Assembly: GCF_009914755.1 (NCBI RefSeq)
Contig: NC_060927.1
DNA length: 64,000 nucleotides
Strand: one strand, 5' to 3'
Origin: the human T2T-CHM13v2.0 reference genome, Homo sapiens
Part shown: in pieces, positions 20,671-63,745 of the stretch
How the letters are laid out: each line of letters begins with the position of its first letter
Position numbering within the stretch: the stretch's first letter is position 1
The notes under the pieces: generated by a model
The model's input: the letters and a program-made list of their open reading frames with translations, nothing else
Databases searched by the model: none
Told to the model about the DNA's origin: nothing
Program-made: the position numbers and the translations under genes

Positions 20671-21099
20671 CTCCTAATTGATACCTTATTCATTCAATAA
20701 TTATACTTCCTAAAAGAGTCTGGTAATTATGTATTTAAAACATATTCACGAGGTGGAGCCAAGATGGCCGAATAGGAACAGCTCCAGTCTACAGCTCCCA
20801 GAGTAAGCAATGCAGAAGACGGGTGATTTCTGCATTTCCAACTGAGGTACCAGGTTCATCTCACTGGGGAGTGTCGGACAGTGGGTGCAGGATAGTGGGT
20901 GCAGCACACTGAGCATGAGCCAAAGCAGGGCAAGGCATCATCTCACCCGAGAAGCACAAGGGGTCAGAGAATTCCCTTTCCTAGTCAAAGAAAGGGGTGA
21001 CAGACGGCACCTGGAAAATCGGGTCACTCCCACCCTAATACTGTGCTTTTCCAATGGTCTTAGCAAACGGCACATCAGGAGATTATATCCTGCACCTGG

Positions 21100-21201
21100 C
21101 TAGGAGGGTCCTACGCCCATGGAGCCTCCCTCATTGCTAGGAAAGCAGCCTGAGATCAAAGTGTAAGGCGGCAGCGAGGCTTGGGGAGGGGCCCCTGCCA
21201 T
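21100..21201 (-). pseudogene. L1 ORF0 remnant (33 codons, premature stop)
   Basis: MAGAPPQASLPPYTLISGCFPSNEGGSMGVGPS* matches the N-terminus of primate L1 antisense ORF0. Confidence 0.8.
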
Positions 21202-21776
21202 TGCCGAGGCTTGAGTAGGTAAACAAAGCGGCCTGGAAGCTCGAACTCGGTGGAGCCCACCACAGCTCAAGGAGGCCTGCCTGCCTCTGTAGACTCCACC
21301 TCTGGGGGCAGGGCATAGACAAACAAAAGGCAGCAAAAACCTCTGCAGACTTAAATGTCCCTGTCTGACAGCTTTGAAGAGAGTAGTGATTCTCCCAGCA
21401 TGCAGCTTGAGATCTAAGAACGGACAAAATGCCTCCTCAAGTGGGTCCCTGACCCCCGAGTAGCCTAACTGGCAGGCACCCCCCAGTAGGGGCAGACTGA
21501 CACCTCACACGGCCGGGTACTCTTCTGAGACAAAACTTCCAGAGGAACAATCAGTCAGGAACATTTGCTGTTCACCAATATCCGCTGTTCTGCAGCCTCT
21601 GCTGGTGAAACACAGGCAAACAGGGTCTAGAGTGGGCCTGCAGCAAACTCTAACAGACCTGCAGCTGAGAGTCCTGACTGTTAGAAGGAAAACTAACAAA
21701 CAGAAAGGACATCCACACCAAAACCCCATCTGTACGTCACCATCATCAAAGACCAAAGGTAGATAAAACCACAAAG

Positions 21777-22795
21777 ATGGGGAAAAAACAGAGCAGAAAA
21801 ACTGGAAACTCTAAAAATCAGAGCGCCTCTCCTCCTCGAAAGGAACGCAGCTCCTCACAAGCAACGGAACAAAGCTGGACGGAGAATGACTTTGACGAGT
21901 TGAGAGAAGAAGGCTTCAGACGATCAAACTACTCCGACCTAAAGGAGGAAGTTTGAACCCATGGCAAAGAAGTAAAAAACCTTGAAAAAAAAATTAGACG
22001 AATGGCTAACTAGAATAACCAATGCAGAGAAGTCCTTAAAGGACCTGATGGAGCTGAAAACCACGGCACCAGAACTACGTGACGAATACACAAGTCTCAG
22101 TAGCCGATTCGATCAACTGGAAGAAAGGGTATCAGTGATGGAAGATCAAAAGAATGAAATGAAGCAAGAAGGGAAGTTTAGAGAAAAAAGAATAAAAAGA
22201 AATGAACAAAGCCTACAAGAAATATGGGACTATGTGAAAAGACCAAATCTACATCTGACTGATGTACCTGAAAGTGACGGGGAGAATGGAACCAACTTGC
22301 AAAACACTCTGCAAGATATTATCCAGGAGAACTTCCCCAATCTAGCAAGGACGGCCAACATTCAAATTCAGGAAATACAGAGAACACCACAAAGATACTC
22401 CTCGAGAAGAGCAACTCCAAGACACATAATTGTCAGATTCAACAAAGTTGAAATGAAGGAAAAAATGTTAATGGCAGCCAGAGAGAAAGGTCGGGTTACC
22501 CACAAAGGGAAGCCCATTCAGACTAACAGCAGATCTCTCAGCAGAAACCCTAGAAGCCAGAAGAGAGTGGAGGCCAATATTCAACATTCTTAAAGAAAAG
22601 AATTTTCAACCCAGAATTTCATATCTAGCCAAACTAAGCTTCATAAGTGAAGGAGAAATAAAATACTTAACAGACAAGCAAATGCTGAGAGATTTTGTCA
22701 CCACCAGGCCTGCCTTACAAGAGCTCCTGAAGGAAGCACTAAACATGGAAAGGAACAACTGGTACCAGCCACTGCAGAAATATACCAAATTGTAA
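21777..22795 (+). pseudogene. L1 ORF1p, disrupted
   Basis: ATGGGGAAAAAACAG start; in-frame TGA at 21954-21956; frameshifts; ORF-track fragment ...EQSLQEIWDYVKRPNL... Confidence 0.93.
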
Positions 22796-23826
22796 AGCCC
22801 ATCGAGGCTAGGAAGAAACTGCATCAACTAATGAGCAAAATAACCAGCTAACATCATAATGACAGGATCAAATTCACACATAACAATATTAACCTTAAAT
22901 GTAAATGGGCTAAATGCTCCAATTAAAAGACACAGACTGGCAAATTGGATAAAGAGTCAAGACCCATCAGTGTGCTGTATTCAGACCCATCTCACATGCA
23001 GAGACACACATAGGCTCAAAATAAATGGATGGAAGAAGATCTACCAAGCAAATGGAAAACAAAAAAAGCAGGGGTTGCAATCCTAGTCTCTGATAAACAG
23101 ACTTTAAACCAACAAAGATCAAAAGAGACAAAGAAGGCCATTACATAATGGTAAAGGGATCAATTCAACAAGAAAAGCTAACTACCCTAAATATATATGC
23201 ACCCAATACAGGAGCACCCAGATTCATAAAGCAAGTCCTTAGAGACCTACAAAGAGACTTAGACTCCCACACAATAATAATGGGAGACTTTAACAACCCA
23301 CTGTCAACATTAGACAGATCAACGAGACAGAAAGTTAACAAGGATATCCAGGAATTGAACTCAGCTCTGCACCAAGTGGACCTAACAGACATCTACAGAA
23401 CTCTCCACCCCAAATCAACAGAATATACATTCTTTTCAGCACCACACCACACCTATTCCAAAATTGACTACATAGTTGGAAGTAAAGCACTCCTCAGCAA
23501 ATGTAAAATAACAGAAATTATAACAAACTATCTCTCAGATCACAGTGCAATCAAACTAGAACTCAGGATTAAGAAACTCACTCGAAACCACACAACTACA
23601 TGGAAACTGAACAACCTGCTCCTGAATGACTACTGGGTACGTCGCGAAATGAAGACAGAAATAAAGACGTTCTTTGAAACCAATGAGAACAAAGACACAA
23701 CATACCAGAATCTGTGGGACACATTCAAAGCAGTGTGTAGAGGGAAATTTATAGCACTAAATGCCCACAAGAGAAATCAGGAAAGATCTAAAATTGACAC
23801 TCTAACATCACAATTAAAAGAACTAG

Positions 23827-26360
<2,534 letters not shown>

Positions 26361-26363
26361 TGA

Positions 26364-27461
<1,098 letters not shown>

Positions 27462-27464
27462 TAG

Positions 27465-27761
<297 letters not shown>

Positions 27762-29489
27762 TGAAGCCAAAAGACACATGAAAAAATGCTCATCATCACT
27801 GGCCATCAGAGACATGCAAATCAAAACCACAATGAGATACCATCTCACACCAGTTAGAATGGCGATCATTAAAAAGTCAGGAAACAACAGGTGCTGGAGA
27901 GGATGTGGAGAAATAGGAACACTTTTACACTGTTGGTGGGACTGTAAACTAGTTCAACCATTGTGGAAGTCAGTGTGGTGATTCCTCAAGGATCTAGAAC
28001 TAGAAATACCATTTGACCCAGCCATCCCATTACTGGGTATATACCCAAAGATTATGAATCATGCTGCTATAAAGACACATGCACACGTGTGTTTATTGCG
28101 GCACTATTTACAATAGCAAAGACTTGGAACCGACCCAAATGTCCAACAATGATAGACTGGATTAAGAAAATGTGGCACATATACACCATGGAATACTATG
28201 CAGCCATAAAAATTGATGAGTTCATGTCCTTTGTAGGGACATGGATGAAGCTGGAAACCATCATTCTCAGCAAACTATCGCAAGGAGAAAAAACCAAACA
28301 CTGCATGTTGTCACTCATAGCTGGGAATTGAACAATGAGAACACATGGACACAGGAAGGGGAACATCAAACACCGGGGCCTGTTGTGGGGTGGGGGGAGT
28401 GGGGAGGGATAGCGTTAGGAGATATACCTAATGCTAAATGATGAGTTAATGGGTGCAGCACACCAACATGGCACATGTATACATATGTAACAAACCTGCA
28501 CGTTGTGCACATGTACCCTAAAACTTACAGTATAATTTAAAAAAATAATAAAAATAAAACATATTCACATATTTACGTATTCATGTATTTAAAATATATT
28601 CATTTATTTTACACTATGTGCAACTCATTTTTCTACTTAAGAATTAGAGAGATGACATTTCGGAGGCCCCTAATTCCAAATGCTGCCGCCTGTTTTTAGT
28701 ACAGATCTGTGTTAAGCAAAGGAAAATGAAGCGGTCAAATCGCCTCAGAAGCTTCCGGCTTCCACCCCTGTTTGTAAACGAAACTCCATATTAGTCAAAC
28801 TACACTCCCCAGGGAGCACCTGTAAAAGTCCCTGATTTACAGAAGTATTTACTTTAGGGTATGGAGTTTGTTTTTTCAGGTTTATCTCTGGGAGAGCTTG
28901 GTGAAGCTGACAGTCCAGCAATTTTATTAAACTGTTCAATTTCAGCATTTTTTAAAGAGCATATATAAAGAACACCGGCAGTAGCTATTTAAATTTCCCA
29001 GTGGATGCTAGAAATAATAAAAGGACACTTAAATGACCATTTTTGAGCAGAGCCAACAGCATGTGTCCTAATTATCCAACTATGTGAAAAATTCTGTGGA
29101 TTTTTACCAGAGCACAAGGGTGTGATATGCACAATTCAGAACACTAACGGCTACCTCACTAGGGTGTAGAGAACTTTTCAAGTCTAAATATAAGGTCCCA
29201 GTCTGCCAGGGTAAGTTTTTCTGCTACTTTCCCTCTTGATGAACTTGTTAGACATGATAAATGGACAACATGGTAAGAAGTTGATATGGTCCACTGATAA
29301 GCCTCTGATGAAGAACAAGTAAATAAAAAACCGTTGTGCTAAGTGCTCTCCTTCATTTATTCTCACGATCACATTCTGAGGTAGGTATTACTATGCACAT
29401 TTTACAGGTCAGGAAAGCAAAGCTCACACAGGATAAGTGCCTTATCCTACAGTTTAAGTATCCAAGCTGGTGTTCTGATTTTCCTCCAC

Positions 29490-56073: not shown

Positions 56074-57812
56074 AATGTAGTAAGGACAGAAAAAGCAAAC
56101 TAAGGACAAAGGAATAAATGAAGAAATGACAGCCACACTTGCCAAGGTGAATTCCATTCAGGGAATTTGCCAAATGAAAAGGATATTAACATTAACTTAA
56201 GCAGGTTTCCTTACTTCAGGAATTGTCTGTCTTTAATATTCATAATGGTCCTCATGAATTTTCCAAAGGATAGAGTATGCAGCATTTATGATTATTTAAA
56301 GGCTTTATAAATGTAACTGCTCTTGGGCATAGTGGTGCTATCAGGCAGACCTAGGTTGAAATTCTGGCTCTGTCAGCGGCTGTGATTTCATGTGCTAATT
56401 TCTTAACTCTTATGAGCCTCAATTACCTTGTCTGAAAAATCAGCCCTTTCATTTATATTTCAACAGAACTTCTGCCCTTGATGTCCCTTTGAAGTTATTT
56501 CCCATAATTAGTCACAGATCATAGCATCATCAGCTGCAATCATCTTATCTCCATTCTATTAACAAATTTACATACATTCTTTTGTATGTTCAACAAACAG
56601 CATATGCCAAGCTGAGCTGGCAACTGGACAAAAACATATTATATGTGGTTTCTGAACACCCAGAGCTCACTATCTTGTTGGGGAGAAAGGCAGTGAGGAA
56701 ATAGTAATGCAGAGCAGTGACAGGTGCCCATAAGGGGTTCGCCTAGTTTGGAGAGGAGAAAACATTTGAGTTGAAATCTGAAGAGAGAAAATGAAGCCAC
56801 TGGAGATGAAGAAAACAAACTTCCATGGGGCTGAGGGAACAAGAATGTGCAAATGCTCTGTGGGAGGCAGAAAGAAAGAGATTTTGAGGAGGAAAAAGGG
56901 CAGTGTAGTTTGCGTGCAAAAACCAGGTGAGCAAGATGGGAGAATCAGGAGAGGCTTTTTCTTTTTTTTTTTTTTTTTAATGTCAACACTGTTTGGTGTT
57001 TATTTGGTGAGCCTGAGGGCAATTTTCATTCTCATTTCTTTTTCTTATTGATTATTTCCAACCCTTTCAACAGTGAACATGCGTTGCTTTTGCAATTACA
57101 ACAACAACAAGAATCCCTATAGACAAAGCAAAAAATATATACTTTGTAATGTTTTTAAAAAACAAAGATTAAACTACACTAAAATATAAGGTGATTATCT
57201 CTGAATGATAAGTTTTGGGGCAGTTTTTTTTTTACCCTCATCACTGCTTTCCGAATTCCAAAGATAAAAAGATACTACTTGAATAAGAAGAAAAATAAAG
57301 AGAGTTGTGTTTCAAGCTTTCCCTCTTCCCTTCTTCCCACCCTATCTAACACTTGGAATATCCCATGAGGGTCTCCAACGTCAGCAGGAACTAAGAGCCA
57401 AGAGTCGACTGAGAGATGACTTTCTTTCTCTTTCTTTTTTGTTGTGTGGTGAAGAAAGAAATCATAATCTGACGTCTAAAGAGCACTTCACTGTTGCTCT
57501 TGGTTGGACTCTAAATCACATTGGGAAAATTAAAACTACAATGAGAAACATCTTACACCAGTCATGATGACTATTATTTTTTCAATTTTATTTTTATTAC
57601 ACTTTAAGTTCTAGGGTACATGTGCACAACGTGCAGGTTTGTTACATATGTATACATGTGCCATGTTAGTGTGCTGCACCCATTAACTCATCATTTACAT
57701 TAGGTATATTTCCTAATGCTATCCGTCCCTCCTCCCCCCACCCCACAACAGGCCCCGGTGTGTGGCCCCGGTGTGTGATGTTCTCCATCCTGTGTCTATG
57801 TGTTCTCATTGT

Positions 57813-61633
<3,821 letters not shown>

Positions 61634-61696
61634 TTTGATGTTAGCTGGTTATTTCGCCCATTAGTTGGTGCAGTTTCTTCCTAGCATCAATGGTGT

Positions 61697-62719
61697 TTAC
61701 AATTTGGCATGTTTTTGCAGTGGCTGTTACTGGTTGTTCCTTTCCATGTTTAATGCTTCCTTCAGGAGCTCTTGTAAGGCAGGCCTGGTGGTGACAAAGT
61801 CTCTCAGCATTTGCTTGTCTGTAAAGGATTTTATTTCTCCTTCACTTCTGAAGCTTAGTTTGGCTGGATATGAAATTCTGGGTTGAAAATTCTTGTCTTT
61901 AAGAATGTTGAATTGGCCCCCATTCTCTTCTGGCTTGTAGAGTTTCTGCCAAGAGATCTGTTGTTAGTCTGATGGGCTTCCCTTTGTGGGTAACCTGACC
62001 TTTCTCTCTGGCTGCTCTTAACATTTTTTCCTTCATTTCAACTTTGGTGAATCTGACAATTATGTGTCTTGGAGTTGCTCTTCTTGAGGAGTATCTTTGT
62101 GGTTGTCTCTGTATTTCCTGAATTTGAATGTTGGCCTGCCTTGCTAGGTTTGGGAAGTTCTCCTGGATAATATCCTGCAGAGTGTTTTCCAACTTGGTTC
62201 CATTCTCCTCATCACTTTCAGGTACACCAAGCAGACGTAGATTTGGTCTTTTCACATAGTCCCATATTTCCTGGAGGCTTTGTTCATTTCTTTTTTCTCT
62301 TTTTTCTCTAAACTTCTCTTCCGGCTTCATTTCATTCATTTGTTCTTCAATCACTGATATTCTTTCTTCCACTTGATCGAATTGGCTACTGAAGCTTGTG
62401 CATGCATCACGTAGTTCTCATGCCATGGTTTTCAGCTCCATCAGGTCATTTAAGTTCTTCTCTACACTGATTATTCTAGTTAGCGATTCGTCTAATCTTT
62501 TTTCAAGGTTTTTAGCTTCTTTGCGATGGGTTCGAACATCCTCCTTTAGCTTGGAGAAGTTTGTTATTCTGATCTTCTGAAGCCTTCTTCACTCAACTTG
62601 TCAAAGTCATTCTCCATCCAGCTTTGTTCCCTTGCTGGCGAGGAGCTAGGTTCCTTTGTAGGAGAAGAGGCACTCTGATTTTTAGAATTTTCAGCTTTTC
62701 TGCTCTGGTTTCTCCCCAT
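61697..62719 (-). pseudogene. L1 ORF1p, disrupted
   Basis: ATG at 62719-62717; ORF1 fragment 61899-62372 (EQSLQEIWDYVKRPNLRL...); stops and frameshifts. Confidence 0.93.
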
Positions 62720-63745
62720 CTTTGTGGTTTTATCTATCTTTGGTCTTTGATGATGGTGACGTACACATGGGGTTTTGGTGTGGATGTCCTTTCTGTTTGT
62801 TAGTTTTCCTTCTAACAGTCAGGACCCTGAGCTGCAGGTCTGTTGGAGTTTGCTGGAGGTCCACTCCAGACCCTGTTTGCCTGTGTATCACCAGCGGAGG
62901 CTGCAGAACAGCAAATATTGCAGAATGGCAAATGTTGCTGCCTGATCCTTCCTCTGAAAGCTTTGTCTCAGAGGGGTACCTGGCTGTGTGAGGTGTCAGT
63001 CGGCCCCTACTGGGAGGTATCTCCCAGTTAGGCTACTTGGGTCTCAGGGACCCACTTGAGGAGGCATTCTGTCCGTTCTCAGATCTCAAACTCCGTGCTG
63101 GGAGAACCACTACTCTCTTCAAAGCTGTCAGATAGGGACGTTTAAGTCTGCAGAAGTTTCTGCTGCCTTTTTTTCAGCTATGCCCTGACCCTAGAGGTGG
63201 AGTCTACAGAGGCAGGCAGGCCTCCTTGAGCTGCGGTGGGCTCCACCCATTTCGAGCTTCTAGGCCGCTTTGTTTACCCACTCAAGCCTCAGCAATTGCG
63301 GACACCCCTCCCCCAGCCTCACTGCCACCTTGTGGTTCGAACTCAGACTGCTGTGCTAGCAGAGAGTGAAGCCCCGTGGGCATGGAACCCTCCGAGCCAG
63401 GCACCAGATATTATCTCCTGGTGTGCCCTTTGCTAAGACAGTTGGAAAAGCACAGTATTAGTGTGGGAGTGTCCCGATTTTCCAGGTACCGTCTCTCACG
63501 GCTTCTCTTGACTAGGAAAGGGAATTCCCCAACCCCTTGCACTTCCCAGGTGAGGCGATGTCCCGCCCTGCTTTGGCTCATGCTCCGTGGGCTGCACCCA
63601 CTGTCCGACAAGCCCCAGTGAGATGAACCGGGTACCTCAATTGGAAATGCAGAAATCACCCATCTTCTGCACTGCTCACGCTGGGAGCTGTAGAATGGCG
63701 CTGTTCCTATTCAGCCATCTTGGAACCTCCTCCCATGATGACTAT

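What the first reader, a model, noticed from the sequence alone, without database searches (positions are those of the whole stretch)
28057..28213. Gene-conversion tract 2 near the ORF2 C-terminus
Seen: 28057-28213 pairs with 57928-58084 with only three mismatches (28099 and 28132 at CpG, plus 28186). Both copies share three alleles that differ from the recalled consensus: A>G 28089/58052 (CGTGTG for CGTATG), C>T 28109/58032 and A>T 28213/57928. The very next base (T vs G) still differs, marking a possible tract end. Inference: a second, probably older, conversion event between the same two L1s, implying recurrence.
Basis: partly seen in the sequence, partly recalled or inferred. Interest (0 to 1): 0.7.

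Follow-up and report, generated by a model that had tools for sequence, protein, structure and literature searches.

The report
Gene conversion between two neighbouring L1s
Two old, broken LINE-1 copies facing each other 29 kb apart in an intron of FHIT share a short run of rare letters, likely because one copy served as a repair template for the other; this is a known and ordinary kind of event, and whether it happened separately from the neighbouring tract is unresolved.

Summary
In detail: 28057-28213 matches 57928-58084 (reverse strand) with 3 mismatches, and both copies carry G28089, T28109 and T28213. Identity alone is not significant (P=0.47). The shared alleles are: each occurs in 1.1-1.4% of 12,567 L1 copies, and an exact search finds all three only in these two copies. 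A looser search finds one more, a distant unlinked copy, so no sub-lineage explains them. Both L1s are independent full-length insertions with intact target-site duplications, so there was no duplication or net inversion. Tract 1 (26914-27052) is independently confirmed. Verdict: likely real non-crossover gene conversion (about 0.85), weakly left copy to right copy. Corrections: 28132 is a CpG gain, not a decay. T28213 may be coincidence, because it would need the tract to end exactly before the unconverted 28214; the firm core is about 28057-28185. 'Older' and 'second event' are not statistically established (Fisher p=0.25; Bayes factor about 1). This is a new example of a known process, in dead repeats, with no evident function.

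The parts
20750..28554 (+). Copy A: full-length L1 (L1PA4-like; label recalled, from no call), likely donor; interrupted by an SVA-like insertion
   Evidence: derived alleles at 29 of 1591 polarised sites outside the tracts
20736..20749 (+). 5' target-site duplication of copy A (14 bp)
28555..28568 (+). 3' target-site duplication of copy A, identical to its own 5' copy
57575..63733 (-). Copy B: full-length L1 of an older type (L1PA5-like; label recalled), likely acceptor; inverted relative to A, 3' ends facing, 29 kb apart
   Evidence: derived alleles at 62 of 1591 sites
63734..63745 (-). 5' target-site duplication of copy B (12 bp)
57563..57574 (-). 3' target-site duplication of copy B
28057..28213 (+). 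Tract 2 in copy A, maximal extent; firm core about 28057-28185 with G28089 and T28109; T28213 less certain
57928..58084 (-). Tract 2 in copy B (matching stretch)
26914..27052 (+). Tract 1 in copy A: 139 bp identical, five shared rare alleles, all T>C (26965, 26981, 27010, 27035, 27046)
59084..59222 (-). Tract 1 in copy B
27053..28056 (+). Unconverted, unswapped 1-kb interval between the two tracts (15 A-only and 45 B-only derived alleles; subfamily markers in place)

Best explanation
Two independently inserted, inverted full-length L1 copies share rare alleles over a stretch of at most 157 bp, likely because a break in one copy was repaired off the other without crossover (non-allelic gene conversion), more likely left into right, and probably as an event separate from tract 1. 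Shown: two separate insertions with intact target-site duplications; shared alleles that are rare genome-wide; too few private changes inside the tract; unconverted flanks. Inferred: strand invasion of the 92-93% similar neighbour, synthesis of about 75-157 bases and release; three or fewer later point changes. Odds: conversion at all about 0.85; A as donor about 0.7; separate event rather than one patchy event about 2:1; tract really reaching 28213 about 0.25.
For: Alleles at 1.39%, 1.31% and 1.15% of 12,567 copies. The exact triple is in 2 copies, A and B; independence gives 2e-6 per named partner. After a look-elsewhere factor of 152 this is 3e-4 to 7e-3, depending on the assumed rate. B has 1 private change at the 156 polarised tract sites against 6.1 expected (P=0.016, boundaries chosen after the fact). 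Neither copy shares a cluster of 3 rare alleles with any of 77 unlinked copies (the three selected sites were excluded there). The same pair has a second, stronger tract: its five-allele pattern matches only A and B even with 2 mismatches. Direction: B has the A-type letter at 28146, found in only 10 of the first 100 rows of 850 B-type copies. A rough model gives a likelihood ratio of 1,200-28,000 for conversion over none, before priors for position and left end.
Against: Identity alone is not significant (P=0.47). One unlinked, more diverged copy on C11 carries all three alleles, so parallel mutation can produce the triple. Double carriers number 10 against 6 expected (P=0.085), so rates vary with age, and B is a heavily mutated copy. 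T28213 is next to the unconverted 28214 and so adds little weight. The direction marker weakens to 10 of 29 in the subset closest to B, and 312 copies natively combine it with B-type flanks. Ages of the two tracts do not differ significantly. No ape or population data could be examined.
Confidence: 0.58

Rival explanations
1. Tracts 1 and 2 are two patches of one discontinuous repair event (template switching or patchy heteroduplex repair) between the same pair, so there is no recurrence.
For: The tracts lie 1 kb apart within a 6-kb homology. Post-conversion divergence is compatible with one age (Fisher p=0.25; span-based p=0.22; Bayes factor 0.9-1.3). A shorter tract 2 would leave only 1-2 later changes.
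Against: The 1-kb gap keeps 60 private differences plus 4 subfamily markers. Discontinuous tracts are described as low-frequency in experiments (PMC3924818, passage). If the ages differ, tract 2 is the older with probability about 0.9.
Confidence: 0.27
2. No conversion at tract 2: three parallel point mutations and a chance low-divergence window.
For: The low-divergence window is common by chance. One unlinked triple carrier exists. B mutated about twice as much as A. The third allele abuts an unconverted site.
Against: Corrected probability 3e-4 to 7e-3; deficit of B-private changes; tract 1 shows that this pair does exchange.
Confidence: 0.1
3. Both copies descend from an L1 sub-lineage or source element that carried the three alleles, or from a local duplication.
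For: Both are close in age class and share some older-type markers (27671, 27989).
Against: No group of carriers exists; pair counts are near independence. The copies have different target-site duplications and different markers at 27235, 27492, 27970, 28214, 28268, 28289 and 28521, and 90-92% overall identity.
Confidence: 0.02
4. Assembly or polishing artefact: reads of one copy altered the other in this assembly.
For: Repeats are prone to mis-mapping (general knowledge).
Against: The copies differ at 7-10% and three differences persist inside the tract. Not tested against a second assembly.
Confidence: 0.02
5. An inversion between the two inverted L1s and a later reversion, with crossovers at tracts 1 and 2.
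For: Inverted L1 pairs mediate inversions (PMC2603318, PMC9675761; passages).
Against: That would swap the interval between the tracts. It is not swapped: A-only 15, B-only 45, and each copy keeps its own markers. Each element has its own pair of target-site duplications.
Confidence: 0.01

Closest known systems
Non-allelic gene conversion between neighbouring Alu elements (Aleshin and Zhi 2010, seen only as cited in PMC6598467; passages)
   Same: Short homogenised stretches between nearby copies of one retrotransposon family; mosaic subfamily markers; rate tied to distance and identity.
   Different: L1 rather than Alu; 29 kb apart rather than under 10 kb; a single identified pair with two tracts.
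Ectopic gene conversion among human Y-chromosome LTRs (PMC4921805; passages)
   Same: Clusters of derived alleles that match one donor; tract sizes 3-86 bp minimum and 14-450 bp maximum; several tracts in one element from the same donor.
   Different: Those were polarised on a human phylogeny and required 100% donor identity. Here the events look fixed or old, are autosomal, and have no phylogeny.
Homology-driven LINE-1 rearrangements and L1-mediated inversions (PMC9675761, PMC2603318; passages)
   Same: Inverted L1 pair; identity (92% in the 3' part) close to the 93.5% median reported for homology-driven LINE-1 events.
   Different: No crossover product here: no inversion, deletion or chimeric element.

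Membership tests
Non-allelic gene conversion tract | Two paralogues of independent origin, not a recent duplication | tested here: met
   Distinct target-site duplications and subfamily markers; 90-92% identity
Non-allelic gene conversion tract | Cluster of shared derived alleles beyond chance | tested here: met
   corrected P 3e-4 to 7e-3; one unlinked carrier found
Non-allelic gene conversion tract | Local identity significantly above the pair's background | tested here: not met
   P=0.47 by permutation for tract 2; met for tract 1 (P=0.009). A short or aged tract is expected to fail this test, so it lowers certainty without excluding conversion.
Non-allelic gene conversion tract | Non-reciprocal, flanks not exchanged | tested here: met
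   flanks and target-site duplications unswapped
Non-allelic gene conversion tract | Donor and acceptor identified | tested here: inconclusive
   Marker 28146 favours A to B by about 3:1 to 9:1 (one search shows native carriers)
Non-allelic gene conversion tract | Unconverted ancestral state seen in an orthologue or another haplotype | not testable with these tools
   No ape or population assemblies held (no relatives)
Recurrent conversion (two separate events) | Tracts of different age or on different branches | tested here: inconclusive
   Fisher p=0.25; Bayes factor about 1
L1 sub-lineage haplotype | Several dispersed copies carry the three alleles together | tested here: not met
   2 exact carriers, plus 1 distant copy with one mismatch allowed
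L1-mediated inversion | Chimeric elements with swapped target-site duplications or swapped interval | tested here: not met

The most novel reading that the evidence does not exclude
This inverted L1 pair inside the FHIT fragile region is a recurrent germline repair partner: it has converted at least twice, millions of years apart, despite 7% divergence and 29 kb distance, and tract 1's five shared changes, all T>C, record a strand-specific clustered mutation process or GC-biased, two-way homogenisation. Such tracts would serve as datable fossils of germline breaks at fragile sites.
Probability: 0.2. Interest if true: 0.55.

Novelty: new member of a known kind. Interest (0 to 1): 0.3.

Why it matters
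Taken alone it matters little: both copies are dead repeats deep in an intron, and conversion between transposon copies is documented. Its value is as a worked, datable example for L1, where such cases seem less catalogued than for Alu or LTRs (the phrase 'gene conversion between L1' with 'LINE-1' gave 0 papers; no paper naming this locus surfaced; subscription papers are mostly not held). If ape and pangenome data show two separate events, it would indicate that 93%-identical L1 neighbours keep recombining in the germline at FHIT, a gene named among the peaks of an oocyte mutation process (PMC9217108, passage). The allele-counting test used here could be scaled to all neighbouring L1 pairs.

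Tried and rejected
Identity permutation: not significant for tract 2. Allele frequencies from the top similarity hits (10/28, 9/28, 3/28) were dropped as biased by the query and replaced by whole-genome pattern counts. The site list was faulty (gaps counted as majority) and was redone. Mutation load as a direction test is nearly uninformative (expected 2.8 from A or 6.1 from B against 4 seen). Search for a third tract in 22944-26597 with only two outgroup copies found 8 scattered shared sites in 1,998, five of them in CpG-type contexts, and no convincing cluster; 20750-22943 could not be tested this way. Sub-lineage, duplication and inversion-reversion were rejected. Pfam scan of the 90-residue reading across the tract: 0 families, so 'ORF2 C-terminus' rests on position just upstream of the 3' UTR and on recall. 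Searches of supplements for a known inversion here found nothing: PMC9675761 (one PDF unreadable, coordinate format may not have matched) and PMC12350158 (main file cut when stored). PMC2603318 has no 'FHIT' or 'chr3' in its main text (supplements not searched). PMC6315858 passages held nothing relevant. Two papers sought by id were not held. RNA editing as the source of tract 1's T>C changes was considered: only speculation, and it does not explain why both DNA copies carry them.

Full report
Observation. The two 157-bp stretches differ at 28099, 28132 and 28186; both carry G28089, T28109 and T28213; the next base, 28214, differs. One detail is wrong: at 28132 the ancestral letter is A in nearly all sampled copies, so the left copy gained a CpG there and the mismatch is not a simple CpG decay.

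Anatomy. Self-comparison shows two long inverted alignments at 90.0% and 92.2% identity. Copy A runs 20750-28554 on +, copy B 63733-57575 on -, with 3' ends facing 29 kb apart. Each has its own target-site duplication at both ends (14 and 12 bp), so they are separate insertions and no net inversion has occurred. A carries younger-type and B older-type letters at 27235, 27492, 27970, 28214, 28268, 28289 and 28521. The labels L1PA4-like and L1PA5-like are recalled, not from a call. Outside the tracts A has 29 and B 62 derived alleles in 1,591 polarised sites (70 reference loci after dropping 6 duplicated siblings and 7 distant copies from 83). A holds a 1.65-kb SVA-like insertion and a one-base deletion just before the tract, so it is not a working copy.

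Is the tract more than chance? By identity alone, no. With a background of 282 differences in 4,063 sites, 47% of 5,000 permutations contain a 157-bp window with at most 3 differences. By shared alleles, probably yes. A pattern with both states allowed at the three sites matches 12,567 copies. G28089 is in 175, T28109 in 164, T28213 in 144, the first two together in 4 including A and B (2.2 others expected), and all three in 2, namely A and B. These counts cover only copies with the context intact. Allowing one mismatch gave 13 matches: A, B, ten double carriers (6 expected, P=0.085) and one further triple carrier on C11. That copy differs from A and B at many other sites and is of an older type, so it is a parallel case and neither a donor nor a sub-lineage, but it shows that coincidence can occur. 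The chance that a named partner shares all three is 2e-6 under independence, or about 5e-5 if the C11 case is taken as the rate over an assumed 22,000 copies (denominator not counted). A look-elsewhere factor of 152 gives 3e-4 to 7e-3. B also has 1 private change in the tract where 6.1 are expected (CpG site 28099 was not among the polarised sites, and boundaries are post hoc).

Support from tract 1. The same pair is identical over 26914-27052 (P=0.009) and shares five rare alleles there. A pattern of those five matches only A and B genome-wide even with two mismatches. So these two copies have exchanged sequence, which raises the prior for tract 2.

Extent. For T28213 to be converted while 28214 was not, the tract must end at exactly that step. 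A rough model (A to B, geometric tract length of 100 or 250, my assumptions) puts 15-34% on that, 48-64% on an end between 28132 and 28185, and gives a likelihood ratio of 1,200-28,000 for conversion over none, before priors for position and left end. I therefore take 157 bp as the maximum and 28057 to about 28185 as the likely core.

Direction. At 28146 B has the letter typical of A's group. Among 850 copies with B's markers at 28214 and 28268, 10 of the first 100 rows have it. In a closer subset it is 10 of the 29 rows with B's 28214 letter, out of 70 rows (counted by eye), and 312 copies combine it natively with B-type flanks. This favours A as donor by only about 3:1 to 9:1.

Older, and a second event? 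Not shown. 0/139 against 3/157 gives p=0.25; counted over the spans of shared alleles, p=0.22. The Bayes factor for one age against two is 0.9-1.3; if two, tract 2 is older with probability about 0.9 and dates to 0.06-0.70 of the donor copy's age. The kilobase between the tracts is fully unconverted and unswapped (15 A-only, 45 B-only), which rules out inversion with reversion. Together with the low frequency of discontinuous tracts in experiments (PMC3924818, passage), this tips me to separate events at about 2:1. No third tract was seen in 22944-26597, but with only two outgroups.

Mechanism. Shown: independent inverted insertions, rare shared alleles in two short patches, no exchange of flanks. 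Inferred from established double-strand-break repair: a broken end in one copy invaded its nearby homeologue, copied about 100 bases and returned without crossover. Nothing here indicates a function.

Comparison. Conversion among transposon copies is reviewed in PMC6598467 (part 1 of 4 and passages read), with higher rates for Alus within 10 kb. Human LTR tracts of 14-450 bp maximum length are in PMC4921805 (passages). Homology-driven LINE-1 rearrangements involve pairs of median 93.5% similarity (PMC9675761, passages). FHIT is one of five long fragile genes under peaks of an oocyte mutation process (PMC9217108, passages); a link to this tract is speculation. Ten literature searches (listings only unless stated) showed no paper on this pair. 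Inversion tables in supplements that were cut, unreadable or unsearched could bear on whether an inversion allele is known.

Verdict. A likely real gene-conversion tract and a new example of a known process, with the claims of greater age and recurrence left open. Interest 0.3.

Noticed in passing
window 26914-27052 / 59084-59222: All five alleles shared in tract 1 are T>C on the L1 sense strand. T>C is 11.7% of 1,818 private changes in unlinked copies; the chance that five changes fall in any one class is about 5e-4. Unexplained: a clustered mutation event in the donor, GC-biased repair, or chance.
   Followed up: partly
window 24131-25778: SVA-like insertion (label recalled) inside copy A: hexamer-like start, antisense Alu-like part, short 37-40 bp VNTR, poly-A, then a further Alu fragment, a TAAA repeat and a second A-tail that look like a 3' transduction; 9-bp target-site duplication at 24122-24130 and 25779-25787.
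   Followed up: partly
L090 (G000:C11:112438770-112439020): An unlinked, older-type L1 copy carries all three tract-2 alleles, apparently by parallel mutation.
   Followed up: yes
window 28039-28056 / 58085-58103: Five differences (four substitutions and a one-base gap) within 18 bp immediately left of tract 2; a plausible barrier to strand exchange.
   Followed up: no
window 24004-24130: Low A-B divergence just upstream of the SVA-like insertion (69-bp identical run; three shared letters, all in CpG-type contexts). Not enough to call a tract.
   Followed up: partly
window 57760-57775: Copy B has a short tandem duplication (about 11 bp) in its 3' UTR relative to A, and a 3-bp deletion at A position 28259-28261.
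   Followed up: no
L089:1260-2196: The comparison copy on C1 has its 5' part inverted, as in a twin-primed L1 insertion.
   Followed up: no
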